NCBI GenBank assembly: GCA_001001555.1
Contig: LCKS01000001.1
Location: forward strand, 82,066 to 146,065
Origin: Candidatus Amesbacteria bacterium GW2011_GWC2_45_19
GTDB lineage: Bacteria > Patescibacteriota > Microgenomatia > CAZETR01 > Amesbacteraceae
DNA length: 64,000 nucleotides
Direction of reading: 5' to 3'
The translations under genes and the position numbers were made by a program. The notes below the pieces were generated by a model. It was not told where the DNA came from and searched no databases. It was given only the letters and a program-made list of their open reading frames with translations. Within the stretch, counting starts at the first letter, position 1. Each line of letters starts with the position of its first letter. Shown here one piece after another: positions 34,944 to 58,810 of the stretch.

Positions 34944-36712
34944 GAAAATTCTGGTTCTCATTAATGACTCCTTTTTTAATTGCCGTTTCTTCGGCTGGGG
35001 CGGCGGATGATAAATTTATCACTGTCGTAAACCCGGTCAGGATTTCTATTTATAATTCTGATCCGGTGGCCAGCATAAAAGCTCAGTATGCAGTAATAAA
35101 CAAATTGAATTTACCGGCAACCTGGCTTGTGACTTATGATGTACTAAATCAACCAGAAATAATTGCCGAATTTAAAAAATTTTCATCCAATCAAGAACCC
35201 GGAATTTTCTTGGAGATTACTCCGGAATTTTCTAAAGTTGCGGGAGTCAAGTACCACAACACCGGCTCCTGGCATTTTGCTAATGCCGTCTTTCTTTCTG
35301 GTTACACCCAAGAAGAGAGGATCAAATTTATCGATACAGTATTTGCTAAATTCAAAGAACAATTCGGCTATTATCCAATTTCCGTAGGTGCTTGGTGGAT
35401 AGACAGTTTTTCTTTAAATTACATGCATAATAAATATGGAATTATAGCCAATTTAGGAGTAGCAGATCAGTACTCTACCGATAATTATCAAGTCTGGGGG
35501 ACTTATTGGTCTATCCCGTATTACCCCAGCAAACTTCACGCCGGTATTCCCGCGGGAAGGGTGGACAATAAAATAGGAGTAGTTATCCTGCAGTGGGCTC
35601 CGCGCGAACCCCGCCGGGGTTATTACAGCAGTCTGTATAGCACCCAGGATTATTTCACCACTCCAAAGCTTGATATCAATTATTTTTCCCAGCTAATTGA
35701 TATATTCCCCCAAGTTACTGTAGGTTTGGAAAGTGACTTTACACCTGAAGCCTATGGGGGTGAATATACCAAGCAAATGCAAATTGTAGCCCAAAAAACC
35801 GCAACCAAGATGACAATGAAAGATTTTGCCAAATGGTACGCAGATAAGTTTCCCGAGGTATCGCCGGAACAAAAGATCGAGTCAGACGGCATGCTCTGGT
35901 ACCAATCGCCTTTTTACCGGTTGAGTATAGATAAGACAAATTTCAAAATAATCGATTTTAGAGTCTATCCGCCGGATTTGCGCGAGCCGTACTATCTGTG
36001 GCCAAACCGGGAAAAAGACTTGCGCATCAATACCCCGTCTTTAATTGATTCTATCCAAAATCCTTCAGAAACTTGGACGATTACTGATCTGAATATCAAA
36101 ACTACTCCAAAATATTTTGAATCAATGAACAAACCGCCCCAAAGTTTTTTCAAGTCAAAATTAATCAAAATTACCCCAATTAACAATAATTGGCGGATAG
36201 AAATAAATACTGAATTAGAGAATTTAACAGACGGGGTCGTTTTTAGTGACTGGAGCCTGGCCACAAAACACTTGCTCAAGGCCCCTAAAAGTCTTATCAG
36301 AGCCATTATTTCTTTCGACTGGAATAAATTTAAGAAAGAAAAATATTGGATTTCTCCGGAAGAAATTATCGGACTGGACAAGTTGAGGCAGCTGCCCGCC
36401 GGCAAAGTGTTGGTCTATAATCACGAATGTTTGCAGTGTGAGTATTTTGGCAAATACCGCCCGGCAGCCTTTGCCAATTCCAGAGGCTATATCCAAAAAT
36501 ATTCCGGGAAAGCCATAATTTACAACAGCGGGATTTTTGAAGCGAAATCTCAAGCTGGGCTGAAATCTAAATTAAAATCTACGGATGCAGGCTATATTTA
36601 TGTAAGCAAATACGCGCCCGGGGTCGAACTATTGAGATTTTCTCCCGGCGACTACGGTATCCGGAAAATATTTGAGAACGCCATGGTCCAGATTTGGAAA
36701 GTAGTAAAATAG
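34940..36712 (+). CDS. Exported hypothetical protein with N-terminal signal peptide (possible carbohydrate-processing enzyme)
   Basis: MRKFWFSLMTPFLIAVSSAGAADD signal peptide; 590 aa soluble, Trp/Tyr-rich; no recognised catalytic motif. Confidence 0.45.
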   Translation: MRKFWFSLMTPFLIAVSSAGAADDKFITVVNPVRISIYNSDPVASIKAQYAVINKLNLPATWLVTYDVLNQPEIIAEFKKFSSNQEPGIFLEITPEFSKVAGVKYHNTGSWHFANAVFLSGYTQEERIKFIDTVFAKFKEQFGYYPISVGAWWIDSFSLNYMHNKYGIIANLGVADQYSTDNYQVWGTYWSIPYYPSKLHAGIPAGRVDNKIGVVILQWAPREPRRGYYSSLYSTQDYFTTPKLDINYFSQLIDIFPQVTVGLESDFTPEAYGGEYTKQMQIVAQKTATKMTMKDFAKWYADKFPEVSPEQKIESDGMLWYQSPFYRLSIDKTNFKIIDFRVYPPDLREPYYLWPNREKDLRINTPSLIDSIQNPSETWTITDLNIKTTPKYFESMNKPPQSFFKSKLIKITPINNNWRIEINTELENLTDGVVFSDWSLATKHLLKAPKSLIRAIISFDWNKFKKEKYWISPEEIIGLDKLRQLPAGKVLVYNHECLQCEYFGKYRPAAFANSRGYIQKYSGKAIIYNSGIFEAKSQAGLKSKLKSTDAGYIYVSKYAPGVELLRFSPGDYGIRKIFENAMVQIWKVVK

Positions 36713-36716
36713 GTCA

Positions 36717-37724
36717 ATGAACTTTCCTGGAGTTAGCATCATTATTCCGGTTTTAAATAACGAACGTACTATTAAAAAGTGCTTGGAATGTGTTACGTTC
36801 CAAGATTATCCTAAAAACAAAGTCGAGATCCTGATTCTTGATGGGGGAAGCACTGACAAAACCATAGCAATCTCAAAATCTTCTAAAAGCATAAACCTTC
36901 ACATTATAAAAGGTGGTTACCGCAACAATATGGAGGCCAGGAGATCTATAGGCTTCCAAAAAGCAAAGCACAATTTAGTATTGGTTTTAGATTCAGACAA
37001 CTACCTATATAGCCCAGACAGCCTTCGAAAGTTAGTCAAGCCCATGCTCGGCAAGGATCGTCTGGTTGGGTCATTCACACTTCATTACCATTATGACTCC
37101 AGATTGCCGCTCTTTACTAGATATATCTCTCTATTTGGCAACCATGATCCTGTTGCCTACTATTTACACAAGGCTGATCGGCAAAAGATTACTCAAAAAA
37201 CCTGGCCACATAAAAATCAAATCGTGTCTACAAAACCGGAATGGACTATTGTTCAATTTAATAAAAAAGATTTCCCGACCCTCGGCTGCAATGGGTTTCT
37301 CATAAACAAAAAATACCTGCACTTAAAAGATATTAAACCGGAGAATTTTTTACATACAGATATTCTCTATGACCTTCTCGATAAAGGATTAAATAAATAT
37401 GCGGTGGTTGATGCTCAGGTTGTTCACGATAGCAGCTCCAGCATTAAACGGCATTTAGAAAAAAGGTATGAATATATGCAGCTCCACCATATTTCTCTGG
37501 CTAAAATAAGGCGCTACAAAGTCTTCGATTCTGACTCGCCCCAGGATCGTCTCCGTCTTGGCAAATTTATTTTATATACTATTACCATTGTCAGACCTCT
37601 CTATGAATCAATCGAAGGATTTTTTCAAAAACCTGATCTCGCCTGGTTTATTCACCCATTTTTATGCTGGGCATTTCTAATCACTTATTCATTTGCGGTA
37701 GTTAATCCTTACAAAAAAGGATGA
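36717..37724 (+). CDS. GT2 glycosyltransferase
   Basis: VSIIIPVLNNERTI...ILILDGGSTDKT...LDSDNYL. Confidence 0.6.
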   Translation: MNFPGVSIIIPVLNNERTIKKCLECVTFQDYPKNKVEILILDGGSTDKTIAISKSSKSINLHIIKGGYRNNMEARRSIGFQKAKHNLVLVLDSDNYLYSPDSLRKLVKPMLGKDRLVGSFTLHYHYDSRLPLFTRYISLFGNHDPVAYYLHKADRQKITQKTWPHKNQIVSTKPEWTIVQFNKKDFPTLGCNGFLINKKYLHLKDIKPENFLHTDILYDLLDKGLNKYAVVDAQVVHDSSSSIKRHLEKRYEYMQLHHISLAKIRRYKVFDSDSPQDRLRLGKFILYTITIVRPLYESIEGFFQKPDLAWFIHPFLCWAFLITYSFAVVNPYKKG

Positions 37725-38833
37725 ACATATTAATTTTAAACTGGAAAGATCTTAAGCATCCACAAGTGGGTGGGGCCGAAATCATAGTCTACGAATTGGC
37801 AAAGAGGCTTGTATCAGTGGGACACGAAGTAACTTGGTTTTGCAGAAGCTTCAAATACGGCAAACATGAAGAGACTATAGACGGAGTCAAGATTGTAAGA
37901 AGAGGCAATCTAGTGACTATGTACTTTCACGCGCCAATATACTATTGGAAACTCCGGAAAAAACCGGATGTTGTAGTCGATATCTCCAACACAATATATT
38001 GGCAAACTCCTTTGTGGGCATGGCAATCAAAAAGAATCGCTTATCTGAACCAACTTGCCCAAGAGGTATTTTATTATGAATACCCGGTCTTTGTATCCAG
38101 ATTCGGTAAATTGGCAGAAAGGCTTCAATACTTGGCATATTTAAACACCAAGTTCGTTTGTTACGCCCAAAGTACAAAGGCAGACTTGATATCAATGGGA
38201 ATAAACGATTCCATGATAAGCACATTCTCATTAGGAGTTGATCACGATAGATATTTTCCTGGCAAAAAGTCAAAAAACCCGTTATTTATATGCGTTAACC
38301 GATTGGTGAAGATGAAAAGAACAGATTTGGTTATCAGAGCCATGGAGATTGTTCATAAGCGTTTTCCTGACACCAGATTAGTAGTCGTAGGATATGGTTA
38401 CGATAGAATAAGACTTGAGAAATTGAGGGATAGTTTGAATCTGGAAGACTCAGTAAAGTTTGCGGATGAAAATATATTATTTTTCACCAAAAACTCAAAG
38501 GATAAAAAAGTAACACTTATGCAACAAGCTTGGGCATTGGTCTTTCCTTCAGTCAAAGAAGGGTGGGGGATGACTGTTACTGAATGTGCAGCCTGTGAAA
38601 CCCCGGCTATAGTGTCCGGCGTCAGCGGACTAAAGGATTCGGTGGTCGATAATCAAACGGGTATTATTCTCTCCCCAAATCCATCGCCTGAAGAAATTGC
38701 CGGCGCAATGGTTAGCTTAATTAAAAACCCGAAACTTCGCAACCACCTGTCTAAACAAGCCAGACTTTACTCGCGAAAATTTAGTTGGGACAAAAGTTAT
38801 CGGGAATTCGCAAACATAATTAGTCGACTATGA
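37721..38833 (+). CDS. GT4 glycosyltransferase, tandem paralog 1 of 3
   Basis: MNILILNWKDLKHPQVGGAEI...EGWGMTVTECAACETPAIVS. Confidence 0.65.
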   Translation: MNILILNWKDLKHPQVGGAEIIVYELAKRLVSVGHEVTWFCRSFKYGKHEETIDGVKIVRRGNLVTMYFHAPIYYWKLRKKPDVVVDISNTIYWQTPLWAWQSKRIAYLNQLAQEVFYYEYPVFVSRFGKLAERLQYLAYLNTKFVCYAQSTKADLISMGINDSMISTFSLGVDHDRYFPGKKSKNPLFICVNRLVKMKRTDLVIRAMEIVHKRFPDTRLVVVGYGYDRIRLEKLRDSLNLEDSVKFADENILFFTKNSKDKKVTLMQQAWALVFPSVKEGWGMTVTECAACETPAIVSGVSGLKDSVVDNQTGIILSPNPSPEEIAGAMVSLIKNPKLRNHLSKQARLYSRKFSWDKSYREFANIISRL

Positions 38834-39960
38834 ATATCCTAATGCTTTCCTGGAGAGGACCAGGTCATCCCAACTCTGGTGGTGCAGAAATAAACACGCT
38901 TGAAAATGTCACTGCATGGACCAAAGCCGGACACAGCGTTACCTGGTTCACTTCGACCTTTCCGGGCGCAACCCCTTTCGAGGTTGTTAACAAAGTGAAA
39001 ATTGTTAGACGCGGATCCCAAAATTTTAAAGTTAATTTAGCGGCATTTACTTGGTATCTTTTTAAACCCCATGAGAGATTTGACATAGTCGTTGATCAAT
39101 TTCATGGATTGCCCTTCTTTACTTCTCTGTACGTTAAGGTTCCTAAACTTGCGTTTATTCATGAAGTGGCCCGTGAGGTTTGGTGGCTAAATCCCTGGCC
39201 TAAACCGTTTAACCTTATTCCAGCCATAGTCGGCAGCTTTCTTGAGCCATGGATATTTCGCATTCTTTACAAAGATATTCCTTTTATGACAGTATCTAAT
39301 TCGACCAAAGAAGATTTAATTAAATATGGAATTCCTGAAAAAAATATATCGGTATTTCTTAGTGGAGTTAATCTTTCCATCCCGTCTCCTTTACCCCCTA
39401 AAAACAAGATTCCAACGATTGTATTTTTAGGAGCATTGTCTAAAGACAAAGGAATAGAAGACGCATTACTTACCTTTTCTTTTATTAGTAAACTCCGTCC
39501 ATCTTGGAAATTCTGGGTGATAGGTCAGGGCGAAACCAACTATCAACTCTATTTAGACACTCTTTGTCAGAAACTGCAGGTAGATAAAAAGGTCAAGTTT
39601 TTGGGTCCGGTTTATTCACTGGAGAAGTTTAAGTTGCTATCACAATCGCACATTTTGATTAATCCTTCAATCCGGGAAGGATGGGGCCTGGTTAATATTG
39701 AAGCTAATGCCGTAGGAACTCCGGTAGTAGGATACTCTGTTCCAGGCACTAAAGATTCAGTTCGTCATCAAATTACCGGTCTCCTCTGTCCTCCCCATCA
39801 TCCAGAGTTGCTGGCCGGGAATACGATCCGGTTAATTGAAAACAAAAAATTATATAAACGACTCGTTTCCAATTCTCTACGTTGGAGTAGACAATTTTCT
39901 TGGGACAAGTTTACTAAACAAAGCTTAAATCTTATTGAAAACCTAGCGGGTAAGAAATGA
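38830..39960 (+). CDS. GT4 glycosyltransferase, tandem paralog 2 of 3
   Basis: MNILMLSWRGPGHPNSGGAEI...EGWGLVNIEANAVGTPVVGY; ATGA overlaps. Confidence 0.65.
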   Translation: MNILMLSWRGPGHPNSGGAEINTLENVTAWTKAGHSVTWFTSTFPGATPFEVVNKVKIVRRGSQNFKVNLAAFTWYLFKPHERFDIVVDQFHGLPFFTSLYVKVPKLAFIHEVAREVWWLNPWPKPFNLIPAIVGSFLEPWIFRILYKDIPFMTVSNSTKEDLIKYGIPEKNISVFLSGVNLSIPSPLPPKNKIPTIVFLGALSKDKGIEDALLTFSFISKLRPSWKFWVIGQGETNYQLYLDTLCQKLQVDKKVKFLGPVYSLEKFKLLSQSHILINPSIREGWGLVNIEANAVGTPVVGYSVPGTKDSVRHQITGLLCPPHHPELLAGNTIRLIENKKLYKRLVSNSLRWSRQFSWDKFTKQSLNLIENLAGKK

Positions 39961-41087
39961 ACATTTTAATGCTTTCCTGGCGCGGTCCCGGCCATCCAAA
40001 CTATGGCGGAGCTGAAATCTCCACTTATCATCATATCCGGGCCTGGGTCAAGGCGGGCCACCAGGTTTATTGGTTTACTTCTTCCGTTCTCCATAGTCCG
40101 TCTGAGGAAACTATCGACGGTGTACACATTATCCGCCGGGGGTTCCAGATTCTGCAAGTCCAATTCGCAGCCGTTATCTGGTATTTTTTCTCTCCCCATC
40201 CCAAATTTGACCTGGTAGTCGATCAGTTTCACGGAATCCCTTTTTTTACCCCTCTTTTTGTTAGATCCAAAAAATTAGCGTTCATTCATGAGGTGGCTAA
40301 AGAAGTTTGGTGGATAAATCATTTGCGCTTTCCCGCCAATTACATATTTGGCACAGCCGGGTTTATTTCCGAACCCTTAATTTTTCGACTTTTTTATCGT
40401 CACATTCCCTTTTTTACCGTATCCCAGTCCACGAAACAAGATTTGATCAAATGGTCCATCCCCGCTTCAAATATTTATATCATACCTAACGGAACCACTA
40501 CTTTGCCTGCTAAATTTGCCAAAGAAAAAACCCCAACCGTGATTTTTTTAGGCGCTGTCGCTCATGATAAGGGAATTGAAGATACACTATTTGCCTTTTC
40601 ATACATTATTAAACTACATCCTCAATGGCGTTTATGGATTGTTGGCAAGAGTGAACCGACCTATCAGGCTAAGCTGGATGAACTCGGTCTTCACTTAGGC
40701 ATTAATTCTCGGCTCAAATTCTGGGGTTTTGTCAATCAACGGAAGAAATTTGAACTGCTGGCCAAAGCTCATGTGATGCTTAACCCGTCCATCAGAGAGG
40801 GTTGGGGATTAGTAAATATTGAAGCTAATTCTGTCGGTACACCCGTTGTCGCCTATGACGTTCCTGGTTGTCGAGATTCTATCCAAAACGGCACAACTGG
40901 CCTTCTCTGTCCCAAAGGCGATATTTCCTGTCTTGCCAAAACCTGCGTTCGTCTCGTGAGTGATAATAAACTATATGAAAAAACGTCAGCTCAAGCTAAG
41001 AAGTGGTCTCTACAATTTTCCTGGGCTAAATCCGCCTCTCTTAGTCTCAAGCTTATTGAGACTTTACGCACAACAAGTTTGCATTAA
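39957..41087 (+). CDS. GT4 glycosyltransferase, tandem paralog 3 of 3
   Basis: MNILMLSWRGPGHPNYGGAEI...EGWGLVNIEANSVGTPVVAY. Confidence 0.65.
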   Translation: MNILMLSWRGPGHPNYGGAEISTYHHIRAWVKAGHQVYWFTSSVLHSPSEETIDGVHIIRRGFQILQVQFAAVIWYFFSPHPKFDLVVDQFHGIPFFTPLFVRSKKLAFIHEVAKEVWWINHLRFPANYIFGTAGFISEPLIFRLFYRHIPFFTVSQSTKQDLIKWSIPASNIYIIPNGTTTLPAKFAKEKTPTVIFLGAVAHDKGIEDTLFAFSYIIKLHPQWRLWIVGKSEPTYQAKLDELGLHLGINSRLKFWGFVNQRKKFELLAKAHVMLNPSIREGWGLVNIEANSVGTPVVAYDVPGCRDSIQNGTTGLLCPKGDISCLAKTCVRLVSDNKLYEKTSAQAKKWSLQFSWAKSASLSLKLIETLRTTSLH

Positions 41088-41937
41088 ATAGTGAACTTTT
41101 AGGATAATTTTTTAACATCTGTTGAAACGAGATTTTGGATACTTTATTAGCAGTACTATCTATTTCATAAACTTTAAACTTATAAGCCTTAAGTAATTCC
41201 AAATAATCTCTACCCGAACTACCGCTTAGATATAATCCCCTCGGCCAAAATTCAGTTAGGATTTTCATTTTTTTGTTCTTTCTTAACACCTCTGACGCTC
41301 CTGTTAAAGCCTTTACCTCTGAGCCTTGAATATCCATCTTAATGACATTAATTCTTTTCTCTTTATTTTTGAAAAAAGTGTCCAATTTGATTGTTCTGAT
41401 AGAAGTAGATCGCCTATTACCTTCTGGATCATAAATGCGTTGGTCTCCAAAATTATCTTCATTACTTAAAAAAAGTTTACTCTTGCCATTTTTGTTCGAT
41501 ACAGCTTTATTTACCAACACTACATTTTTATATCCATTAACTTCCACATTTTTTTTAAGCAACTCAAAATTTTTGGGAAGTGGTTCAAATGCATATACCT
41601 TCCCTTTTGGTCCAACCCTTTTTGCTGCTATCAACGTGTAGTATCCAATATGGGCACCTATATCTATAACGATGTTTCCTGGTTTAATATTCTGTTCAAA
41701 CAGACTTGCCTCAAACTTCTCCCACTTTCCACTCAATATCAGTTCCAGCGAAATCACTCGGTCATCTTTGTCAATGTACATCCGATGGCCGCCAATAATC
41801 AATGATTCGGGTTTAAAAAAATTAACTACCGGCGAGACGACGGCTTTAGTATATGGATTTTCATAAATTTGGTGCACTACGGTCCACAAAACTCCTCTGC
41901 CAATATTTTTATATATTTTTCCAAACACAAGTATCAT
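41053..41937 (-). CDS. FkbM-family SAM-dependent methyltransferase
   Basis: VIDIGAHIGYYTLIAAKRVGPKGKVYAFEPLPKNFELLKKNVEVNGY...MDIQGSEVKAL. Confidence 0.6.
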   Translation of the reverse strand: MILVFGKIYKNIGRGVLWTVVHQIYENPYTKAVVSPVVNFFKPESLIIGGHRMYIDKDDRVISLELILSGKWEKFEASLFEQNIKPGNIVIDIGAHIGYYTLIAAKRVGPKGKVYAFEPLPKNFELLKKNVEVNGYKNVVLVNKAVSNKNGKSKLFLSNEDNFGDQRIYDPEGNRRSTSIRTIKLDTFFKNKEKRINVIKMDIQGSEVKALTGASEVLRKNKKMKILTEFWPRGLYLSGSSGRDYLELLKAYKFKVYEIDSTANKVSKISFQQMLKNYPKSSLFNANLLCVKSQ

Positions 41938-41940
41938 TAT

Positions 41941-42969
41941 ATGCTAAACTGGCAAAATTACCTTATGACACCCGAGCAAAAAACTTATCTTCCAGTGTCT
42001 CAATTGGCCTTGGAAACTTTCAGACAAACTCCGAACCATGATTTAGAACTTCTCATCAAAACCCCCACGGGTACTTACCAGACGGCTTGGGAACGGGCTT
42101 ATGGAGAACCAGCTCTGAATCCCGATTCCCGACTGCCCGGCCTATTGGGTGGTGAAGATTTCATGCCTCCCGGGAAAAGAAAGCTTCTTTTTGGTACCCA
42201 TCTTAATGGCCGTTGTCCGGCCGACTGCCTAGATTGTCCCTTTGGCTCAACTACCATAAGAGCCATTTACGCTTCCGAATCCGATTTGCACTACACTCTG
42301 GCCCGACCGATTACTCCAGCTGAACTGTCGGCTTTTCTGGTCAGAGCCAAACAAATAGCAGTCGAGCGGGGAATTTTAAAATCTGGTGAAACATTTAGTG
42401 CTGGAGCTTTACTTTCCGGGGATCCTGGTTATAACCGACATACAGCCGAACTTGTTGCCGCTGTAAGTCGAGTTCCAGACTGTGAAGCCTGTCGTTGGTC
42501 GACCATTGCCCCCGATACTGGCCACAACGTCTTAGCGGCTTTTATAAAAGGAGCGCAGCTCGCCCGGGAAATAGACCCAGCCCACATTTCCAGTTTTCAA
42601 GCCTCCCTTCACAGTACCGATCATGAGGTTCGCGTGCGGCATACGGGAGTCACCCGTCTTCTTTCAATGAGTGATATTGCCGCGGCCTCACAGGAAATTT
42701 ATCAAATTACCGGTAGAAAACTGTCGTTAGCCTTCGTACTGCATGCAGGTTCGGTGATAGACCATCGGGTATTAAAAGATAACTTTTCGCCTGATCACAA
42801 TATTATTTCTCTCCGGCCTATCTATTCCGCCACTACACTACCCATGAATCCGGATAACACGATAAAACTCTATTCGCAGCTAAGAAAAGATGGCTGGGAT
42901 GTAGTTTACATGCCCCCAAACCAAGGTAATGGTGGGCCACCGATTGAATTACACAATATGAGAGGCTAA
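41941..42969 (+). CDS. Hypothetical protein with CX3CX2C cysteine cluster (candidate radical-SAM-like Fe-S enzyme); higher GC than neighbours
   Basis: LLFGTHLNGRCPADCLDCPFG with later SGDPG; start chosen at first ATG after the divergent FkbM start; ~50% GC vs ~38% around. Confidence 0.4.
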   Translation: MLNWQNYLMTPEQKTYLPVSQLALETFRQTPNHDLELLIKTPTGTYQTAWERAYGEPALNPDSRLPGLLGGEDFMPPGKRKLLFGTHLNGRCPADCLDCPFGSTTIRAIYASESDLHYTLARPITPAELSAFLVRAKQIAVERGILKSGETFSAGALLSGDPGYNRHTAELVAAVSRVPDCEACRWSTIAPDTGHNVLAAFIKGAQLAREIDPAHISSFQASLHSTDHEVRVRHTGVTRLLSMSDIAAASQEIYQITGRKLSLAFVLHAGSVIDHRVLKDNFSPDHNIISLRPIYSATTLPMNPDNTIKLYSQLRKDGWDVVYMPPNQGNGGPPIELHNMRG

Positions 42970-43790
42970 GTGAGTGGATTATAGTAGCCCGTTGCCGCCT
43001 TAATAGCCATTAGGAGAACGTCCAGCTTTTTTCTAAAGCCGACTATTTTGGTGGGAGTTTTACCCTGCGGAGGATAGCTGCGGATAACCGGGATTTCCAC
43101 ACTACGCAGTCCCAATCGGTTTGCGCGGGCGGTCACATAAAACAAAATCTCATAGCTATTAAAAACGCCCCGGAATAATTTCAAGTTTGGATCAAGAAGT
43201 AACTTCTTGCTGTAAGCCCGATGCCCATTACTTGTGTCTGTGTACCATTTGCTAGCGGCCAAGCTAAGCATTGGAGAGAATAAATATTTAATTGCCACCT
43301 CTCGTTCTAAAGGAGTATTTATTCCCCGGCCGCTCTTAATAAACCTGGATCCCTGGATATAGTCATATCCCATATCCAAATACTTCACAAAATTTGGAAT
43401 AGCTTTAGAATCATCCTTACCATTACCGTCAATGTGTAATACCCCTGCATAACCATTTTTAAGGGCAAAGGCATAAGCCATTCGATATTGAGCCCCCAAT
43501 CTCCCTGAACCAGTTTTTACGAGCAAGGTAGTCACTCCTTGATTTTTCAAAAATTTTGGGTCGGTGGAACCGTCCGTACTTCCTCCATCGGCAATAATAA
43601 TGTCCACTAGTTTCGAATACCTTTTTACTTTTTTCAACTGTTTCTTAAACTTGTCTCCCTCATTAATAACGGGAATAACCAAACAATATTTAGTCTTTCT
43701 TTTTTTAAATTCAAATTTTTCAAAATCCGGCACCTCCCAATCCTTTTTCATCACCCAATTATACAGTTGTATAATTGTCTTGTGGTACAA
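42966..43790 (-). CDS. GT2 polyprenyl-phosphate sugar synthase (DPM1-like); probable true start at 43751 (MKKDWEVP...)
   Basis: CLVIPVINEGDK...IIIADGGSTDGSTD...HIDGNGKDD. The ORF's first 13 codons overlap a palindromic promoter; a minus-strand TATAAT sits 7 nt upstream of the internal Met. Confidence 0.65.
   Translation of the reverse strand: MYHKTIIQLYNWVMKKDWEVPDFEKFEFKKRKTKYCLVIPVINEGDKFKKQLKKVKRYSKLVDIIIADGGSTDGSTDPKFLKNQGVTTLLVKTGSGRLGAQYRMAYAFALKNGYAGVLHIDGNGKDDSKAIPNFVKYLDMGYDYIQGSRFIKSGRGINTPLEREVAIKYLFSPMLSLAASKWYTDTSNGHRAYSKKLLLDPNLKLFRGVFNSYEILFYVTARANRLGLRSVEIPVIRSYPPQGKTPTKIVGFRKKLDVLLMAIKAATGYYNPLT
43756..43777. promoter_or_regulatory. Palindrome CAATTATACA-GT-TGTATAATTG with TATAAT on both strands; candidate bidirectional promoter
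   Basis: Read directly; minus-strand TATAAT is positioned for a leaderless start at 43751. Plus-strand TATAAT (43769-43774) is ~30 nt upstream of the GtrA ATG at 43806. Confidence 0.45.
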
Positions 43791-43805
43791 ACTTCTATAC
43801 AGCTC

Positions 43806-44189
43806 ATGCGGTTTGTGTTTGTAGGAGGACTGGCGGTGGGGGTTGATTTTATGGTTTATTTTGGGTTGTTATTTTTACTATCGGGTATTTCTACTCCTTT
43901 GGCTAAGGCTATATCTTACATCTGTGGGGCAACAGTTTCGTTTGTGGGCCACCGGTCTTTTGTATTTGCAGCCCACGATCGGCAGGCCAGACATCAAGTC
44001 CTGCCTTTTATTATTCTGTATGGAAGTTCTTTAATAGCCAACAATCTAATTAACCAAGTTATTTTAAATCTGACAGGGGTAAGAGTCCTGGCTTGGTTTA
44101 TAGCCATTTGCTCCTCAACTACCATAAACTATCTGGGGATGAAATTTGGAGTGTTTAGAGACGGATCTTTACACTTGCCAAAAATGTGA
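43806..44189 (+). CDS. GtrA-family small membrane protein
   Basis: MRFVFVGGLAVGVDFMVYFGLL..., 4 TM, 127 aa. Confidence 0.55.
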   Translation: MRFVFVGGLAVGVDFMVYFGLLFLLSGISTPLAKAISYICGATVSFVGHRSFVFAAHDRQARHQVLPFIILYGSSLIANNLINQVILNLTGVRVLAWFIAICSSTTINYLGMKFGVFRDGSLHLPKM

Positions 44190-44204: not shown

Positions 44205-45245
44205 ATGAAAGTATTAGTTACCGGGGGATGCGGATTTGCAGGCAGTCATGTTTGTGAATACTACAAAAAACAAGGCGCGAAGGTAGTAGCTTATGATAAT
44301 CTGACTAAATTTGAACTCCGCAGGACTGGTTATTCTACTGAAAAAGCCAGGTTTCATAACGTTGAGTTTCTAAAAAAACTAAAAGTAGAAATAGTCAGAG
44401 AGGACATTAGAGACAGACAAACATTGGAAAATTACGCCAAAAAAGCAGACTTTATAATTCACACTGCCGCCCAGCCAGCCATGACAATTTCCTGGGAAGA
44501 CCCAGAGTTGGACTTTACCACCAACGTGGTAGGAACATTTAATATCTTAGAAATTGCCCGTAAATATAAAATTCCGACTGTATCTTGCGCGACTATCCAC
44601 ATATATGGAAACAAAATTAATGACGAGGTCAAAGAAGGCAAGACTCGCTACATCAGGCGTCCGGCAGAAATAGATGAGAGTCATAGATTGGTCGAAGGCT
44701 TGTTGACACCATTGCATGCTTCCAAACATACCCTAGACCTTTATACTCAAACTTACATTGATACCTACAAACTTCCCTTGGCCTCTTTTAGGCTCACAGG
44801 ACTATATGGATCGCGTCAGTTTGGTGGAGAGGACCACGGTTGGGTAGCCAATTTCGCCATTCGTTCTGTTATGGATTACCCATTAACTATTTTTGGAACA
44901 GGTAAGCAAGTCCGCGATATCCTTCACATTTCCGATTTAGTCAGAGCATTTGACGCATTTTACAAAAAACAAAAAGCCGGTGTCTATAATATTGGCGGTG
45001 GAACTAAAACTATACTTTCATTGATAGAGTGCATACACTTGATAGAGAAAATATTGGGTAAAAAATCAGAGATTAGTTATCAACCCTCTCGAATGGGAGA
45101 CTTGGTCTATTTTGTCTGTGACATCACTAAGGCTAAGAAAAATTTAGGCTGGTCTGCCAAAGTTTCTCCGGAAAAGGGTGTTCGGGAGCTTGTTAATTGG
45201 GTCCAACAGAACAAAAATCTTTTCGAAATCAAAGATGCAAAATAA
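44205..45245 (+). CDS. NAD-dependent sugar-nucleotide epimerase/dehydratase (extended SDR; CDP-/UDP-sugar epimerase-like)
   Basis: MKVLVTGGCGFAGSH Rossmann; YxxxK region present (ASKHTLDLY). Confidence 0.7.
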   Translation: MKVLVTGGCGFAGSHVCEYYKKQGAKVVAYDNLTKFELRRTGYSTEKARFHNVEFLKKLKVEIVREDIRDRQTLENYAKKADFIIHTAAQPAMTISWEDPELDFTTNVVGTFNILEIARKYKIPTVSCATIHIYGNKINDEVKEGKTRYIRRPAEIDESHRLVEGLLTPLHASKHTLDLYTQTYIDTYKLPLASFRLTGLYGSRQFGGEDHGWVANFAIRSVMDYPLTIFGTGKQVRDILHISDLVRAFDAFYKKQKAGVYNIGGGTKTILSLIECIHLIEKILGKKSEISYQPSRMGDLVYFVCDITKAKKNLGWSAKVSPEKGVRELVNWVQQNKNLFEIKDAK

Positions 45246-46014
45246 GATAAGAATCGGTGTTATACCTGCCGCTGGTTCCGGAAAACGGTTGGGCTACCTT
45301 TCTTCACTCCTTCCCAAGACACTTTTTCCTCTTTATGACCGTCCAATAATTCACTATGTAGTTGATCAAATGCAAAGTATTGGTATAGAGGACATATATA
45401 TCATTGTCAATATTTACAAAGAAAAAATAATTGAGTATTTCAAATTTGTCCAAATGGATTTGCGGGCTAATATCTACTTCATTGAACAAAAAACCTTAAA
45501 CGGTAATGGTGAGGCAATTCTTTTAGCTGAGCAATACACCAAAAAGGAACCTTTCATGGTCATATATGGCGATGATTGTACAGTGTCTGAATCATTGGAC
45601 GGCATGATTCAAAATTTTTTAAAATCGACGGCAATTGTCATGGAAGGTGTAGTGAAAGAGGAAGACTTGGCAATTCTTAGACAAACTTGTTCGGTCAAGT
45701 TGGCAAAAAACGGCCGCATGATAGAGATTATCGAAAAGCCTGAAAACCCGCCGCACATGTTCCGTGGTTGCGGGGTATATTTATTCCGCCCGGAAGTATT
45801 TAGTCATATTCGAAACACGCCAATACACCCAATCCGTCAAGAACGGGAAATCACATACACCATTGATCGATTGGCAAAACTTGGTAAAGCCTACGGACAC
45901 TTAATTAATGGCAGTAATGTAAATATTAATGATTATGATGAATTAATTAAAGCTAGCCAGATGTTAAAAGACCACAAAAAGGCGTCTAAAAAATTGGTTG
46001 AGGTTTTGTTTTAA
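45235..46014 (+). CDS. Sugar-1-phosphate nucleotidyltransferase
   Basis: IRIGVIPAAGSGKRLG...LPKTLFPLYDRPIIHY G-x-G-x-R-L signature. Confidence 0.65.
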   Translation: MQNKIRIGVIPAAGSGKRLGYLSSLLPKTLFPLYDRPIIHYVVDQMQSIGIEDIYIIVNIYKEKIIEYFKFVQMDLRANIYFIEQKTLNGNGEAILLAEQYTKKEPFMVIYGDDCTVSESLDGMIQNFLKSTAIVMEGVVKEEDLAILRQTCSVKLAKNGRMIEIIEKPENPPHMFRGCGVYLFRPEVFSHIRNTPIHPIRQEREITYTIDRLAKLGKAYGHLINGSNVNINDYDELIKASQMLKDHKKASKKLVEVLF

Positions 46015-47029: not shown

Positions 47030-48436
47030 CTAATTTGATTGGTATTTCTTGTTTATTGCTAAGTATACGTATTGATAGGCAAAATGCTGGGTAAGTAGTC
47101 TAGCCAGTACTATGCCGATACTCGTAAAAAACGGAGCGGGGGTAACTTGTTTAGAAATAATAGAATACTTTGATCTATTGATTAACTCTTGGGAAGATTT
47201 ATCTGTAAAAAAATGTAAATGGGTGGAATCAAAAGGACCGCGGGTGAACTTATGTCTTGGAAAAAGAAAACGCAGTATTCGAGCAGGTAAATAATTAGAA
47301 TTAGGTAAGGAAACTATTAAGTATTTAGAGTTAATTTGATTTATTACTGTCTCCGGCTTGTTTAAATGTTCAAGAACATCTGCGGCCACAGTGACTTCTG
47401 AAGATGTCTTTGGAAGAGGTTTATTTAAGCTTCGCCAATAGACAGTCGAATAACGGTTAATGGCTGCAAATCTTTTCCAACTATGGCTTTTTTCTATACC
47501 GATGAGATCTCCTTGCCAAGTCGGACCTAGTGCAGAAGCTAAGAATCCTCCAGCACAGCCTAAATCAAGAACTGTACGAAAGTTGCATTTTTTAATTAGA
47601 GAAGCAATAAGCATATGACTGGAGTTAGAGTGATGCTTAAAGCTGTAAGGGGAGACAGAATAAATTGAATCTTTAATGAGTCCTAACTGAGATAATTGAT
47701 ATTTAAGTACTGCATTGAGACAGCTTAAACCGTAGGAGAACACCTTGACTCCGCTTTTGCTGCCTGGTCCGTAATAAGTGGGAATGGGCACTTCAATTAT
47801 TCGATATCCCAGATGATTGAGAAATATTATCATTTCTGTGTCAAAGTGGTATGAATTTGACAGTTTAGACAGGGGAATTGCTTTAAAGACGTTAGTATTA
47901 TATGCACGATATCCCGAGTGGAATTCGGAAAAATTTGTACCTAGAATTATGTTTTCCAAATGAGTTAGTATTTTGTTACCAATAAATTTGTAATAAGGCA
48001 TACCACCTTCCAAGGGCCTGCCTAGCATTCTGGAACCCATTACTACACCTATTTGCCTCCAATCCTGTTCTTCGAAGGGTTTTAAAAGCAATGGCATTTT
48101 TTCAGGTGAGTATTGGACATCGCCATGCAGCATAACTACAACGTCGAGTTTTTGGGTTATGGCATAGCGGTATCCACGTTTTTGATTTCCACCGTAGCCT
48201 AAATTTCGGGGATTTCTAAATACTCGAAACTTTTCAATTCTTCGAAGTAACTTGTAACCCATGGCTGCAAAATAAGTATTGTCCCCGGAGTGATCATCAA
48301 GACAGTAAATGGTGGAAGCACCCCTTTTAATTTTTACCGGAATGCGTTCGTATGCCGCAATAAGGGTAGACGCAACATTGTAGGCAAGAATGAAAATTCC
48401 GTAGCGTAACTTGTTCTTCATATTTGTTCTAAGCAT
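47030..48436 (-). CDS. Bifunctional GT2 (DPM1-like) glycosyltransferase fused to C-terminal class I SAM-dependent methyltransferase
   Basis: N-term FILAYN...CLDDHSGDNT...LHGDVQY; C-term VLDLGCAGGFLASAL...ADVLEHLNKPE methyltransferase motifs I and post-I. Confidence 0.6.
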   Translation of the reverse strand: MLRTNMKNKLRYGIFILAYNVASTLIAAYERIPVKIKRGASTIYCLDDHSGDNTYFAAMGYKLLRRIEKFRVFRNPRNLGYGGNQKRGYRYAITQKLDVVVMLHGDVQYSPEKMPLLLKPFEEQDWRQIGVVMGSRMLGRPLEGGMPYYKFIGNKILTHLENIILGTNFSEFHSGYRAYNTNVFKAIPLSKLSNSYHFDTEMIIFLNHLGYRIIEVPIPTYYGPGSKSGVKVFSYGLSCLNAVLKYQLSQLGLIKDSIYSVSPYSFKHHSNSSHMLIASLIKKCNFRTVLDLGCAGGFLASALGPTWQGDLIGIEKSHSWKRFAAINRYSTVYWRSLNKPLPKTSSEVTVAADVLEHLNKPETVINQINSKYLIVSLPNSNYLPARILRFLFPRHKFTRGPFDSTHLHFFTDKSSQELINRSKYSIISKQVTPAPFFTSIGIVLARLLTQHFAYQYVYLAINKKYQSN

Positions 48437-49962
48437 TTAGACACCTTCTCTCTGAAAGCCATCGTTTCGTTGGAAATTGTACCATTAAAATCTACCGACC
48501 AGGCATAAATGTTGGTTTTCAAAATGGGTTTCCCTTTTTGGTTATCGGGAGCCGCATATTTAAAGGTAATTTCTTCTCTTTTATTGTTGGGAGCGCAGAT
48601 CCATTCTGCAGCAGCATCCCAATTCGAAAACACCGTAGGAAACATTGCAGAATCCCGTAGACCCTTGAAATAAGCATAAGCATAGGGGAACCAGCCAGAC
48701 ACTAAGTTGCTCCTAGATGTATGAATAACCAAAGCGCGGGGTAGTGAATCAACGGTGGTATCGTTCACAATTTTTTGATAGATTGGTTTTACAAGATTAG
48801 CATTTCTTAACGAGCTTTCAATGCTCAATACATACGTAGAGTATTTTAAAAACATTATGAGCAATGGGACAAACACTAGTATCTGCTTCAACTTAGATAA
48901 CTTTGACAAAAGAAGTCCAATCATAAGAAGCACTCCAATACCTATGCCGGCCATATATCTGTGGGAGGATCCGACCATTGTGCTCGGTCCACCGCTAGCA
49001 TACATCCAGTTAGGAATAAACATAAAGGCCATCCACAAAAAGATGGTGGCCGTGGATTGCCAGAACTTTGAGCGGGTAACCAGAAAGACAATAGTTACAA
49101 CTACTGTAGTAATAAAAAAAACCTTTCCAATAAGTAGACTTAGGAAGGAGATTCTTCCTACTAATCCTCCTTCCTCGGCTAATGGGAAAATAGGAATTCG
49201 TAGCAGGTTACCAATATTACTAAATAAGATGTCTAGGTGTGAGTAACTTTCTGAGAGAACATGGGAATAAGAAAATCCAGAGGTGTTAACAGCTGGATCT
49301 CGAATGATAATTATTAGTATTACAATTACGAGTACTAAAAATCCGAAATACTTGGCTAAAAATTTACTTGGACGAAGATAGAAGTGGAAAAACGTGGAGA
49401 TAGCCAGTAGTGGGAATATTCCTATTACCCGTCCAAAAAAAGAAAATAAACTCATTATTGCAGAAATACAAATGCCTAAGAAGTAAAGTGGTCTCTTAGT
49501 TTTTAGAAATAAATTATGGAATGCAAATGCTAGTAGTGAAAAGAATACCGCAAGACCTGTAATTCTATGCCAGGTATACACTTCTACACCTCCGCTGTAA
49601 CCCGCGTACAATAAAGAAGATAGAATCGAGGAGGTTTTATTTTTAGTAAAAGTGTACACCAGTAGCAAGACGGCGGCGCTATTAAGAAATTTTAGATAAA
49701 TTCCGGTAGATTGAAACTGCTCAAAGGAAATTTTGTCGTATAAGCGAGTGTAAGGGAGCATGAAGAGGCCCGTTTTTACTTGCCAACCATCTGGAGTACC
49801 TCCAATTTCTCTATATACTGCCGCCGGATTTAACTTATTGGCCCACATAAAAATCCAGTCGTCCTTCCAATAATAGAAATTCTTTACATTTGGTAAACTG
49901 ATATAGCTAATTAACAGCAGCAAACCAGAAGTAATTATTACGCGACTATTTACTTTCAGCAT
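48418..49962 (-). CDS. Polytopic membrane protein of unknown function (family C; putative glycan polymerase/GT-C-like)
   Basis: 514 aa, >10 TM, no recognised motif. Confidence 0.4.
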   Translation of the reverse strand: MLKVNSRVIITSGLLLLISYISLPNVKNFYYWKDDWIFMWANKLNPAAVYREIGGTPDGWQVKTGLFMLPYTRLYDKISFEQFQSTGIYLKFLNSAAVLLLVYTFTKNKTSSILSSLLYAGYSGGVEVYTWHRITGLAVFFSLLAFAFHNLFLKTKRPLYFLGICISAIMSLFSFFGRVIGIFPLLAISTFFHFYLRPSKFLAKYFGFLVLVIVILIIIIRDPAVNTSGFSYSHVLSESYSHLDILFSNIGNLLRIPIFPLAEEGGLVGRISFLSLLIGKVFFITTVVVTIVFLVTRSKFWQSTATIFLWMAFMFIPNWMYASGGPSTMVGSSHRYMAGIGIGVLLMIGLLLSKLSKLKQILVFVPLLIMFLKYSTYVLSIESSLRNANLVKPIYQKIVNDTTVDSLPRALVIHTSRSNLVSGWFPYAYAYFKGLRDSAMFPTVFSNWDAAAEWICAPNNKREEITFKYAAPDNQKGKPILKTNIYAWSVDFNGTISNETMAFREKVSKCLEQI

Positions 49963-57614: not shown

Positions 57615-57619
57615 ATTAG

Positions 57620-58777: not shown

Positions 58778-58810
58778 TAAAATTCTAACCATTTTGTATA
58801 ATCTGGTTAA

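What the first reader, a model, noticed from the sequence alone, without database searches (positions are those of the whole stretch)
41941..42969. Unannotatable Cys-cluster protein (CX3CX2C) on a high-GC islet next to an FkbM methyltransferase
GTHLNGRCPADCLDCPFG has the spacing of the radical-SAM [4Fe-4S] ligand motif, and a downstream SGDPG could substitute for the GGE SAM-binding motif. However, the order of other motifs is atypical and no profile search was possible. In a glycan locus with two FkbM and one fused methyltransferase, a radical-SAM-type C-methyltransferase or epimerase acting on a sugar would be a plausible and interesting function.
Basis: inference. Interest (0 to 1): 0.5.

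Follow-up and report, generated by a model that had tools for sequence, protein, structure and literature searches.

The report
Hidden radical SAM enzyme, glycan locus
This unannotated gene in a Candidatus Amesbacteria sugar-coat locus encodes a real but very divergent radical SAM enzyme built on the scaffold of the RNA methylases RlmN/Cfr, without the cysteines those enzymes need to methylate, so it most likely does a different radical reaction on a sugar.

Summary
The ORF at 41941-42969 (likelier start 41965) encodes CPADCLDC and SGDPG and sits between an FkbM methyltransferase and a GT2.

The radical SAM reading is supported:
- All three Cys are invariant in 35 homologues; four homologues contain no other Cys.
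- A family profile aligns to an RlmN-anchored profile at E=7e-28, with every core motif in canonical order.

Pfam, NCBIfam and PDB sequence searches miss the protein itself.

It is not a class A methylase. RlmN Cys118 and Cys355 are absent, and no B12, SPASM or auxiliary-cluster features exist.

In 11 of 13 independently sampled loci it lies tail-to-tail with an AglJ/DPM1/ArnC-like GT2, next to an NDP-sugar SDR and a nucleotidyltransferase. In one Levybacteria locus an FAD oxidase occupies its slot.

Best inference: a single-cluster enzyme that abstracts a sugar hydrogen, probably oxidising CH-OH to C=O. The chemistry is unproven.

The "high-GC islet" reflects amino-acid composition (GC3 equals neighbours).

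Verdict: a new variant of a known kind, of moderate interest.

The parts
41965..42969 (+). Coding sequence of the radical SAM protein 'X'. It is 334 aa from ATG 41965.
   Evidence: ORF. The homologue alignment and the NCBI model start at M9. AlphaFold model: pLDDT 84, pTM 0.86.
41992..42165 (+). N-terminal accessory domain (residues 18-75): three beta-strands and a short helix. It is not aligned to RlmN.
42214..42237 (+). CX3CX2C motif (C92, C96, C99): predicted ligands of the SAM-binding [4Fe-4S] cluster, in the loop after beta1.
   Evidence: Invariant in 35/35 homologues. Aligned to RlmN C125/C129/C132.
42415..42429 (+). SGDPG (G160 invariant, D161 in 30/35): the GGE-type SAM-binding motif at the end of beta2.
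   Evidence: Aligned to RlmN GMGEP. Conservation.
42493..42513 (+). RWSTIAP (S187 invariant): the end of beta3, equivalent to RlmN TLSTSG.
42598..42633 (+). QASLHSTDHEVR (Q220, S222 and R231 invariant): the beta4 motif, equivalent to RlmN AISLHAPNDEIR.
42811..42819 (+). LRP (R292 invariant): the end of beta6, a candidate substrate phosphate binder.
   Evidence: Conservation. Aligned to RlmN LIP. The phosphate-binding role is inferred.
42946..42957 (+). ELHN (E336 in 33/35, N339 in 28/35) in the C-terminal loop that carries the methyl-Cys355 'CGQ' motif in RlmN. Proposed general base.
   Evidence: Conservation. No Cys occurs in this loop in any member. Related 'bridging' proteins have SNCGQ here. 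The positional equivalence rests on spacing (inference).
42966..43790 (-). Partner glycosyltransferase: a soluble-type GT2 most like AglJ, dolichyl/polyprenyl-phosphate hexose transferases and ArnC. It is convergent with X, with a 4-bp overlap of the 3' ends.
   Evidence: PF00535 E=3e-6. TIGR04182 AglJ E=2e-10, and weak DPM and ArnC hits. The pairing is conserved in other loci.
41053..41937 (-). FkbM-family methyltransferase, divergent from X. Only 3-27 bp separate the two start codons.
   Evidence: It is adjacent to X or to the GT2 in most X loci.
43767..44189 (+). GtrA-family small membrane protein (putative flippase for a lipid-linked sugar).
   Evidence: PF04138 E=3e-19.
44205..45245 (+). 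NDP-sugar 4,6-dehydratase/epimerase-type SDR, about 90% identical across X loci.
45178..46014 (+). Sugar-1-phosphate nucleotidylyltransferase.

Best explanation
X is a genuine single-cluster radical SAM (AdoMet radical) enzyme. It belongs to a small, previously unannotated family that descends from the RlmN/Cfr branch of the superfamily.

C92, C96 and C99 hold a [4Fe-4S] cluster. SAM binds through the GDP, STIA, SLHST and FVLH strand-end motifs and is reductively cleaved to a 5'-deoxyadenosyl radical.

Unlike RlmN/Cfr, the protein has no methyl-carrying cysteine, no resolving cysteine and no helical RNA-binding N-domain. It therefore cannot methylate by the class A ping-pong route.

Instead it works in a cell-envelope glycan pathway with the tail-to-tail AglJ/DPM1/ArnC-like GT2, an NDP-sugar SDR, a nucleotidyltransferase, GtrA and often an FkbM O-methyltransferase. 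The radical is proposed to abstract a hydrogen from a sugar carbon of the NDP-sugar or polyprenyl-phosphate-sugar handled by that GT2.

The most likely outcome is an O2-independent two-electron oxidation of CH-OH to C=O. The conserved Glu336 would deprotonate the alpha-hydroxyalkyl radical and the electron would return to the cluster, as DesII does with TDP-quinovose. A neighbouring SDR could then re-reduce the ketone to give a net epimerisation.

What is shown: the motif, its conservation, the fold, the homology, the absence of class A/B/SPASM features, and the synteny.

What is inferred: cluster binding, SAM cleavage, the substrate class and the oxidation chemistry.

My sub-probabilities:
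- radical SAM enzyme: about 0.9
- acts in the glycan pathway: about 0.7
- dehydrogenase-type chemistry: about 0.3
For: Motif and conservation:
- C92/C96/C99, G160, S187, Q220, S222, R231 and R292 are invariant in 35 sequences of 20-61% identity.
- P0020, P0023, P0024 and P0028 contain only the three motif Cys.

Fold:
- AlphaFold2 model has pLDDT 84 and pTM 0.86, with alternating beta/alpha elements.
- Foldseek places RlmN and Cfr in ranks 1-11 (E from 1e-10 to 7e-7).

Homology:
- The family profile finds about 310-aa proteins at E 1e-10 to 1e-7. These in turn hit PF04055 and the TIGR00048/Cfr models.
- hhalign of the family against those proteins plus E. coli RlmN gives Prob 99.8% and E=7e-28 over X 75-324 / RlmN 110-344.
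- 11 of 35 members give sub-threshold PF04055 hits and none hits SPASM or B12.

Not class A:
- RlmN C118 aligns to L83.
- No member has a Cys in the C-terminal loop, whereas the bridging relatives keep SNCGQ.
- The mechanistic roles of Cys355 and Cys118 are described in PMC12871812 and PMC12458371.

Glycan link:
- X is convergent with the same GT2, with overlapping 3' ends, in L001, L002, L003/L005, L009, L019, L020 and L021.
- In 3 of 5 loci found by searching with the GT2 alone, X is again convergent with the GT2 (L024, L025, L027).
- The FkbM gene changes sides and X is sometimes the last gene of a GT2-GT4-GT4-SDR-SDR operon (L020, L027), yet the X-GT2 pair persists.

Oxidation hypothesis:
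- In Levybacteria locus L026 the same slot (convergent, 4-bp overlap) holds a DAO-family FAD oxidoreductase resembling glycerol-3-phosphate and L-2-hydroxyglutarate oxidases. A ketose-3-epimerase-like TIM barrel and an SDR-like gene lie beside it.
- DesII is a single-cluster radical SAM enzyme that dehydrogenates a TDP-sugar, using a Glu as proton acceptor with electron return to the cluster (PMC11434129).
- Sugar epimerases of this superfamily need a Cys hydrogen donor, as NeoN Cys249 shows (PMC10991966). [quoted passage not shown]
Against: - No significant direct hit of X to PF04055, to any NCBIfam model or to any PDB sequence.
- The residue before the third Cys is Asp, not the usual aromatic.
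- All biochemical steps are untested.
- The loci carrying X come from related Microgenomates/Patescibacteria and their neighbours are 55-95% identical. Part of the synteny therefore reflects shared ancestry rather than selection.
- The FAD-oxidase substitution is a single locus, and L019 carries both X and a different flavoprotein.
- The most distant family branch (P0031) sits after the rRNA methyltransferase gene rsmE in a housekeeping context, not a glycan one.
- The closest solved relatives act on RNA.
- The position of E336 relative to the active site is inferred from spacing, not from coordinates.
Confidence: 0.55

Rival explanations
1. X is a stand-alone radical SAM sugar epimerase. The 5'-deoxyadenosyl radical removes a sugar hydrogen, and a protein or solvent-derived donor returns a hydrogen to the opposite face.
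For: - The glycan context is conserved.
- No RmlC-type 3,5-epimerase was seen among the window genes I scanned, although many SDRs are present.
- The slot-mate in L026 is accompanied by an epimerase-like TIM barrel.
Against: - Known radical SAM sugar epimerases use a Cys hydrogen donor, as with NeoN Cys249.
- Four family members have no Cys outside the cluster motif.
- No Tyr is invariant: Y311 is present in 31/35 and lies in a helix.
Confidence: 0.15
2. X is an RNA-modifying enzyme, a divergent RlmN/Cfr paralogue acting on rRNA or tRNA with non-methyl chemistry. It sits in the glycan locus only by inheritance.
For: - The closest structures and sequence relatives are RlmN and Cfr.
- The distant member P0031 overlaps the 3' end of an rsmE-like RNA methyltransferase gene.
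- R231 and the SLH motif are shared with RlmN.
Against: - X lacks both catalytic Cys residues.
- The N-terminal domain is beta-rich and is not aligned to RlmN. RlmN's N-domain being helical is from my own knowledge.
- The X-GT2 pair survives rearrangements of the surrounding genes and was recovered in 3 of 5 GT2-seeded loci.
- The family is tiny and patchy, unlike a housekeeping RNA modifier.
Confidence: 0.12
3. X is a radical SAM C-methyltransferase of a new mechanistic type. It would install a C-methyl branch on a sugar without a methyl-cysteine or cobalamin.
For: - It derives from the class A methylase lineage.
- The locus is rich in methyltransferases.
Against: - The defining elements of class A (mCys355, Cys118) are absent.
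- The defining element of class B (a B12-binding domain) is absent.
- No extra domain exists for a second SAM or a folate.
- In one locus the slot is filled by an FAD oxidase, not by a methylase.
Confidence: 0.08
4. X is a degenerate or non-catalytic relative. It would be an Fe-S or structural protein that no longer cleaves SAM, or one that acts on a protein or peptide rather than a sugar.
For: - X evolves faster than most neighbours: 36-59% identity against 55-95%.
- There is no direct Pfam hit.
- The residue before the third Cys is non-aromatic.
Against: - Strand-end residues that line the radical SAM active site stay invariant across 20-61% identity, including the GDP, S187, Q220/S222, R231 and R292 positions.
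- The model of a complete barrel is confident.
- No precursor-peptide-like gene is conserved beside X.
Confidence: 0.07

Closest known systems
RlmN / Cfr (class A radical SAM RNA methyltransferases; PDB 6fz6, 3rfa, 4pl2, 5hr7, 9p0p)
   Same: - Homologous core with the same motif order: CX3CX2C, G(D/E)P, ST, SLH...R, and the beta5 and beta6 motifs.
- Single [4Fe-4S] site.
- A C-terminal loop follows the last strand.
   Different: - No Cys at the RlmN Cys355/Cfr Cys338 or Cys118 positions.
- E-x-x-N replaces the CGQ loop motif.
- The N-terminal domain is beta-rich and unaligned.
- Scores are far below all NCBIfam RlmN/Cfr cut-offs: 11.9 bits against 601.
- The genomic context is glycan synthesis, not translation.
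Uncharacterised ~310-aa RlmN-like proteins with a C-terminal SNCGQ motif (P0037, P0041, P0043, P0055, P0056 and others)
   Same: - Nearest sequence relatives outside the family: E from 1e-10 to 1e-7 against the family profile.
- Similar length and the same core motifs.
   Different: - They retain the methyl-cysteine loop motif and hit the TIGR00048 and Cfr models at E 1e-8 to 1e-12.
- Their function is also unknown.
DesII (radical SAM TDP-sugar deaminase/dehydrogenase; PDB 8hzy)
   Same: A single-cluster radical SAM enzyme acting on a nucleotide sugar. An active-site Glu is proposed as proton acceptor and the electron returns to the cluster during dehydrogenation (PMC11434129). This is the proposed functional analogue.
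   Different: - No specific sequence relationship, and a different size and accessory domains.
- X's substrate is unknown.
NeoN / HygY-type radical SAM carbohydrate epimerases
   Same: Radical SAM enzymes that abstract a sugar C-H within glycoside pathways.
   Different: - They use a conserved Cys hydrogen donor; HygY is named a twitch enzyme in a paper title.
- The X family has no conserved extra Cys and no SPASM or twitch hit.
DprE1/DprE2 with Rv3789 (decaprenyl-phospho-ribose 2'-epimerase system of mycobacteria; from my own knowledge)
   Same: The pathway logic is suggested by the neighbourhood: a lipid-phosphate sugar is made, oxidised to a keto intermediate, re-reduced by an SDR, flipped by a GtrA-like protein and used by GT-C enzymes. 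PMT_2-type GT-C genes occur in the window and in related loci.
   Different: - DprE1 is a flavoenzyme unrelated to X.
- The analogy rests on the gene neighbourhood and on one locus where an FAD oxidase replaces X.
- No chemistry has been tested.

Membership tests
Radical SAM superfamily (AdoMet radical core) | CX3CX2C cluster-binding motif in the loop after beta1, conserved among homologues | tested here: met
   C92/C96/C99 are invariant in 35/35 sequences. They align to RlmN C125/C129/C132.
Radical SAM superfamily (AdoMet radical core) | Match to the PF04055 profile at the curated threshold | tested here: not met
   X gives no PF04055 hit even at E<=10. 11 of 35 family members give sub-threshold hits, the best being 28.3 bits against a cut-off of 29.5. 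Homology is established only by profile-profile comparison (E=7e-28).
Radical SAM superfamily (AdoMet radical core) | Partial (beta/alpha)6 TIM-barrel fold shared with solved members | tested here: met
   [not shown]
Radical SAM superfamily (AdoMet radical core) | GGE-type SAM-binding motif at the end of beta2 and downstream strand-end motifs in canonical order | tested here: met
   G160-D161-P162 aligns to RlmN G-E-P. The beta3, beta4, beta5 and beta6 motifs align in order.
Radical SAM superfamily (AdoMet radical core) | Binds [4Fe-4S] and reductively cleaves SAM to 5'-deoxyadenosine | not testable with these tools
   Requires anaerobic biochemistry.
Class A radical SAM methyltransferases (RlmN/Cfr) | [quoted passage not shown] | tested here: not met
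   X has no Cys after residue 181. No family member has a Cys in the loop, and E336-x-x-N339 occupies it instead.
Class A radical SAM methyltransferases (RlmN/Cfr) | Second catalytic Cys in beta1 (RlmN C118), which resolves the adduct | tested here: not met
   RlmN C118 aligns to L83. There is no Cys between residues 77 and 91 in any member.
Class A radical SAM methyltransferases (RlmN/Cfr) | Scores above the curated cut-offs of the TIGR00048 and Cfr models | tested here: not met
   The only hit is NF011031, at E=0.08 and 11.9 bits against a cut-off of 601.
Class A radical SAM methyltransferases (RlmN/Cfr) | N-terminal RNA-binding accessory domain | tested here: inconclusive
   The alignment to RlmN begins at RlmN residue 110. 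X residues 18-75 are predicted as beta-strands. No residue-level structural superposition was available.
Class B (cobalamin-dependent) radical SAM methyltransferases | N-terminal B12-binding domain | tested here: not met
   No B12-binding Pfam hit in X or in any of the 35 members.
SPASM/twitch radical SAM enzymes | Extra Cys ligands for auxiliary Fe-S cluster(s) | tested here: not met
   Four members have only the three motif Cys. No SPASM hit.
Radical SAM carbohydrate epimerases (NeoN/HygY type) | Conserved Cys that returns a hydrogen atom to the substrate radical | tested here: not met
   No conserved Cys outside the cluster motif. The requirement is described.
DesII-like radical SAM NDP-sugar deaminase/dehydrogenase | Specific sequence or fold relationship to DesII | tested here: not met
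   [not shown]

The most novel reading that the evidence does not exclude
X founds a radical SAM family that current profile libraries do not detect. In this family the RlmN/Cfr methyl-synthase scaffold has lost its methyl-relay cysteines and RNA-binding domain. It has been re-used as an O2-independent oxidase or epimerase of a nucleotide- or polyprenyl-phosphate-linked sugar in the cell-envelope glycan pathway of Candidate Phyla Radiation bacteria. There it would be the anaerobic counterpart of an FAD-dependent oxidase found in the same genomic slot in other lineages.
Probability: 0.25. Interest if true: 0.7.

Novelty: new variant of a known kind. Interest (0 to 1): 0.55.

Why it matters
- It shows that real radical SAM enzymes are still missed by PF04055-based censuses of the superfamily. 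This one was found only through structure prediction and profile-profile bridging.
- It would be an RlmN/Cfr-lineage protein working outside RNA methylation and without the methyl-cysteine relay. That bears on how class A chemistry evolved.
- It points to an unexplored radical step in the surface-glycan synthesis of uncultivated Patescibacteria, whose envelopes are almost uncharacterised.
- If the FAD-oxidase/radical SAM swap holds, it offers a testable oxic/anoxic enzyme pair.

Tried and rejected
- Direct searches of X found nothing significant: Pfam, NCBIfam, PDB phmmer and PDB profile searches. Only faint RlmN, YydG and HydG fragments appeared.
- hhalign of the family against the single E. 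coli RlmN sequence was uninformative (Prob 1.8%). It became decisive only after bridging sequences were added.
- The afdb50 fold library was unavailable.
- Horizontal transfer as the cause of the GC islet was rejected. GC3 equals that of the neighbours in the window and in six other loci, and the excess is explained by Gly/Ala/Arg/Pro content. An old transfer that has since equilibrated at third codon positions cannot be excluded.
- C178/C181 as extra cluster ligands or a hydrogen donor was rejected. C178 is present only in one subfamily and lies just upstream of strand beta3; C181 is variable.
- The GTDB genome scan and the metagenome scan added few loci: 2 and 9.
- The GT2 has no PDB sequence relative.
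- Literature searches found no description of this family or of a radical SAM/FkbM/GtrA module.
- Rfam and tRNA scans of the window found nothing.
- Isoelectric point does not separate X (median 6.2) from RlmN (6.6).
Full report
**1. The observation**

Residue numbers below count from 41941.

The peptide GTHLNGRCPADCLDCPFG is residues 85-102, and SGDPG is residues 159-163. The protein is identical to a 334-aa "hypothetical protein" of Candidatus Amesbacteria GW2011_GWB1_47_26, which starts at the 41965 Met. Nearly all homologues start there too.

Direct annotation fails. Pfam and NCBIfam give nothing above noise, and a PDB sequence search gives nothing. So "unannotatable" is fair.

The flanking genes are as described:
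- an FkbM methyltransferase on the minus strand at 41053-41937;
- a GT2 on the minus strand at 42966-43790, whose 3' end overlaps X by 4 bp;
- then GtrA, an NDP-sugar SDR and a sugar-1-phosphate nucleotidyltransferase.

More broadly, every window gene I scanned between about 29 and 63.5 kb is either glycan-related or has no Pfam hit. That stretch includes GT2, GT4 and GT-C genes, several SDRs, a DegT aminotransferase, a fused GT2-methyltransferase and a second FkbM.

**2. The GC islet**

GC rises to 0.48-0.50 across the gene, against about 0.40 in the immediate flanks. Third-codon-position GC is 0.41, the same as in neighbouring genes. The same pattern holds in six other loci that carry the gene.

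The protein is 30% Gly/Ala/Arg/Pro, against 18-23% for its neighbours. The islet therefore reflects amino-acid composition, not recent foreign DNA.

**3. Is the Cys motif meaningful?**

A search of 5.8 billion proteins found only 17 relatives, all unannotated and without Pfam domains. An exhaustive profile search of 1.84 billion cluster representatives raised this to about 35 family clusters.

Across these 35 sequences (20-61% identity) only nine positions are invariant: C92, C96, C99, G160, S187, Q220, S222, R231 and R292. E336, T226 and F265 are nearly invariant.

Four members (P0020, P0023, P0024, P0028) contain no cysteine other than the three in the motif. This rules out three things in one step:
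- an auxiliary Fe-S cluster;
- a methyl-carrying cysteine;
- a cysteine hydrogen donor.

**4. Fold and homology**

The AlphaFold2 model built on the family alignment is confident (pLDDT 84, pTM 0.86). It shows a beta-rich N-terminal unit (residues 23-54) followed by alternating strands and helices.

- Foldseek against the PDB ranks RlmN and Cfr structures 1-11 (E from 1e-10 to 7e-7). NifB, HydG, viperin and lipoyl synthase are among the next hits.

Sequence evidence agrees once intermediates are used. The family profile reaches about 310-aa proteins at E 1e-10 to 1e-7. These themselves hit PF04055 and the RlmN/Cfr NCBIfam models weakly.

A profile of the family aligned to a profile of those proteins plus E. 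coli RlmN gives Prob 99.8% and E=7e-28 over X 75-324 / RlmN 110-344. The aligned motifs are:

| X | RlmN |
|---|---|
| C92/C96/C99 | C125/C129/C132 |
| G160-D-P | G-E-P |
| RWSTIAP | TLSTSG |
| QASLHST...R231 | AISLHAP...R |
| LSLAFVLH | VTIEYVML |
| IISLRP | KINLIP |

Eleven of the 35 members show sub-threshold PF04055 hits, and none shows a SPASM or B12-binding domain.

**5. What it is not**

Class A methylases work by a ping-pong route. SAM first methylates Cys355. A 5'-deoxyadenosyl radical then abstracts a hydrogen from that methyl group, the resulting radical attacks the adenine, and Cys118 resolves the adduct (PMC12871812; PMC12458371).

In X, RlmN C118 aligns to Leu83. There is also no cysteine anywhere after residue 181.

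The loop after the last strand carries SNCGQ in the bridging relatives. In the X family it carries a conserved E-x-x-N instead (E336 in 33/35, N339 in 28/35). By spacing from the last aligned column, E336 falls within about one residue of the Cys355 position. This is an inference.

X therefore shares the scaffold of RlmN/Cfr but fails two defining tests for class A membership. It also fails the tests for class B and for SPASM/twitch enzymes.

**6. Genomic context**

X is convergent with the same ~260-aa GT2, with overlapping 3' ends, in these loci:
- Microgenomates Gr01-1014_16 (L001);
- GCA_000402715.1 (L002);
- L003/L005;
- L009;
- L019;
- L020/L021.

The surrounding order changes. FkbM lies on either side, and X is sometimes the last gene of a GT2-GT4-GT4-SDR-SDR operon (L020, L027), yet the pair persists.

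As a less biased test I searched with the GT2 alone. It belongs to a very large family (more than 7,000 hits at E<1e-10), annotated as GT2 or dolichol-phosphate mannosyltransferase in Levy-, Davies- and Roizmanbacteria and others.
- Three (L024, L025, L027) again have an X homologue convergent to the GT2 (hmmsearch E 1e-111 to 1e-121).
- One (L028) has nothing there.
- One Levybacteria locus (L026) has a DAO-family FAD oxidoreductase in exactly that slot, with the same 4-bp overlap. It is most like glycerol-3-phosphate and L-2-hydroxyglutarate oxidases. A ketose-3-epimerase-like TIM-barrel gene and an SDR-like gene lie immediately upstream of the GT2.

The GT2 is closest to AglJ, dolichyl-phosphate hexose transferases and ArnC. 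The SDR and nucleotidyltransferase next to it are 78-91% identical across loci, whereas X is only 36-59% identical.

Two caveats apply. The X loci come from related organisms, so part of the synteny is inherited. The most distant branches of the family are not glycan-linked: P0031 follows an rsmE-like gene, and P0032 sits in an uninformative archaeal-type context.

**7. Mechanism**

Shown:
- a conserved three-Cys site;
- a SAM-binding motif set;
- a radical SAM barrel of the RlmN/Cfr lineage;
- no other redox or methyl-relay element;
- a persistent partnership with a polyprenyl-phosphate-type GT2 and NDP-sugar enzymes.

Inferred: the enzyme binds one [4Fe-4S] cluster, cleaves SAM, and uses the 5'-deoxyadenosyl radical to abstract a hydrogen from a sugar carbon of the NDP- or lipid-phosphate-linked sugar. 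The invariant Arg231, Arg292 and Arg/Lys185 would hold a phosphate.

Among possible outcomes I favour oxidation of CH-OH to C=O, for four reasons:
- No known methylation apparatus is present.
- No hydrogen-donor Cys is present for direct epimerisation. [quoted passage not shown]
- A CH-OH-type flavin oxidase replaces X in one locus.
- There is a precedent. DesII, with a single cluster, dehydrogenates TDP-quinovose through an alpha-hydroxyalkyl radical. A Glu deprotonates that radical and the electron returns to the cluster (PMC11434129).

The conserved Glu336 could play that role, and a neighbouring SDR could re-reduce the ketone to give a net epimerisation. My probabilities are about 0.9 for a radical SAM enzyme, about 0.7 for a glycan-pathway role and about 0.3 for dehydrogenase-type chemistry.

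**8. Rivals**

- A direct epimerase with a non-Cys donor (0.15).
- An RNA-modifying RlmN-like enzyme inherited within the locus (0.12).
- A new type of C-methylase (0.08).
- A degenerate or protein-directed relative (0.07).

Each is addressed, with refuting results, in the rival section.

**9. Comparison and novelty**

The nearest characterised family is RlmN/Cfr. X works from the same core but is not a member by the defining cysteines.

No paper describing this family or this gene module was found. I rate it a new variant of a known kind.

**10. Verdict**

The radical SAM interpretation is supported. The specific C-methyltransferase or epimerase guess is weakened in favour of a cysteine-independent hydrogen-abstraction/oxidation role. 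Interest is moderate (0.55), because the family is invisible to standard profiles and re-uses the RlmN scaffold, while the chemistry remains unproven.

Noticed in passing
L026:6786-7868 (-), with L026:4422-5998: In a Levybacteria locus, the slot convergent to the GT2 (the slot X occupies elsewhere) holds a DAO-family FAD oxidoreductase. A ketose-3-epimerase-like TIM-barrel gene and an SDR-like gene lie immediately upstream of the GT2. This may be a non-homologous replacement of X.
   Followed up: partly
window 41935-41967: The start codons of the divergent FkbM gene (41937, minus strand) and of X (41941 or 41965) are only 3-27 bp apart. Each gene's promoter must therefore lie inside the other's coding region. 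No Shine-Dalgarno-like sequence is obvious before either X start.
   Followed up: no
window 37721-41087: There are three tandem GT4 glycosyltransferase paralogues (370, 376 and 376 aa), each overlapping the next by 4 bp. Related loci have two or three copies.
   Followed up: no
window 47030-48436 (-): A fused protein has an AglJ/PpgS-like polyprenyl-phosphate glycosyltransferase N-terminal half and a MetW/UbiG-like methyltransferase C-terminal half.
   Followed up: no
window 48418-51718 (-), 34940-36712 (+), 60750-62750 (+), 27539-29101 (+): Several 514-666-aa proteins have no Pfam or NCBIfam hit and sit among GT-C-type genes (PMT_2 at 29098-30675, PIG-V-like at 33090-34202). They may be unrecognised membrane glycosyltransferases or polymerases.
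   Followed up: no
window 56466-59719: A DegT/DnrJ/EryC1 sugar aminotransferase and an RmlD-type reductase lie about 13.5 kb downstream of X. An amino-deoxy-sugar branch therefore exists in the same super-locus. It is of interest because DesII acts on an amino-sugar.
   Followed up: no
L003 (CAYHNU010000001.1) and L005: The GTDB record is titled 'uncultured Gammaproteobacteria bacterium'. Yet the locus proteins compared are 59-95% identical to, and syntenic with, the Amesbacteria window. The bin is probably mislabelled or chimeric.
   Followed up: no
all X-bearing loci (L001, L002, L003, L009): X is among the fastest-evolving genes of the locus. It is 36-59% identical, while the adjacent SDR is about 90% and the GT2 72-80% identical.
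   Followed up: partly
P0057 (814 aa; metagenome protein): A distant relative is a three-part fusion: a QueT-type transporter, an RlmN-like radical SAM domain with a TCGK loop, and an MTA/SAH nucleosidase.
   Followed up: no
P0037, P0041, P0043, P0055, P0056 and about 20 others: A sizeable uncharacterised group of ~310-aa RlmN-like proteins keeps the SNCGQ methyl-cysteine loop. They are about 70 residues shorter than RlmN and score far below the RlmN/Cfr cut-offs.
   Followed up: no
L016:2250-4152: The most divergent X-family branch (P0031, no C-terminal Cys) overlaps the 3' end of an rsmE-like 16S rRNA methyltransferase gene. It lies downstream of dnaN, recF and dciA, a housekeeping context rather than a glycan one.
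   Followed up: no
L024:4944-5972, L025:4866-6026: HD/HDIG-domain proteins (342-386 aa) lie immediately upstream of the GT2 in two X loci. None was noticed in the window.
   Followed up: no
window 1-64000: No tRNA gene and no Rfam family at gathering threshold in the whole 64 kb.
   Followed up: yes
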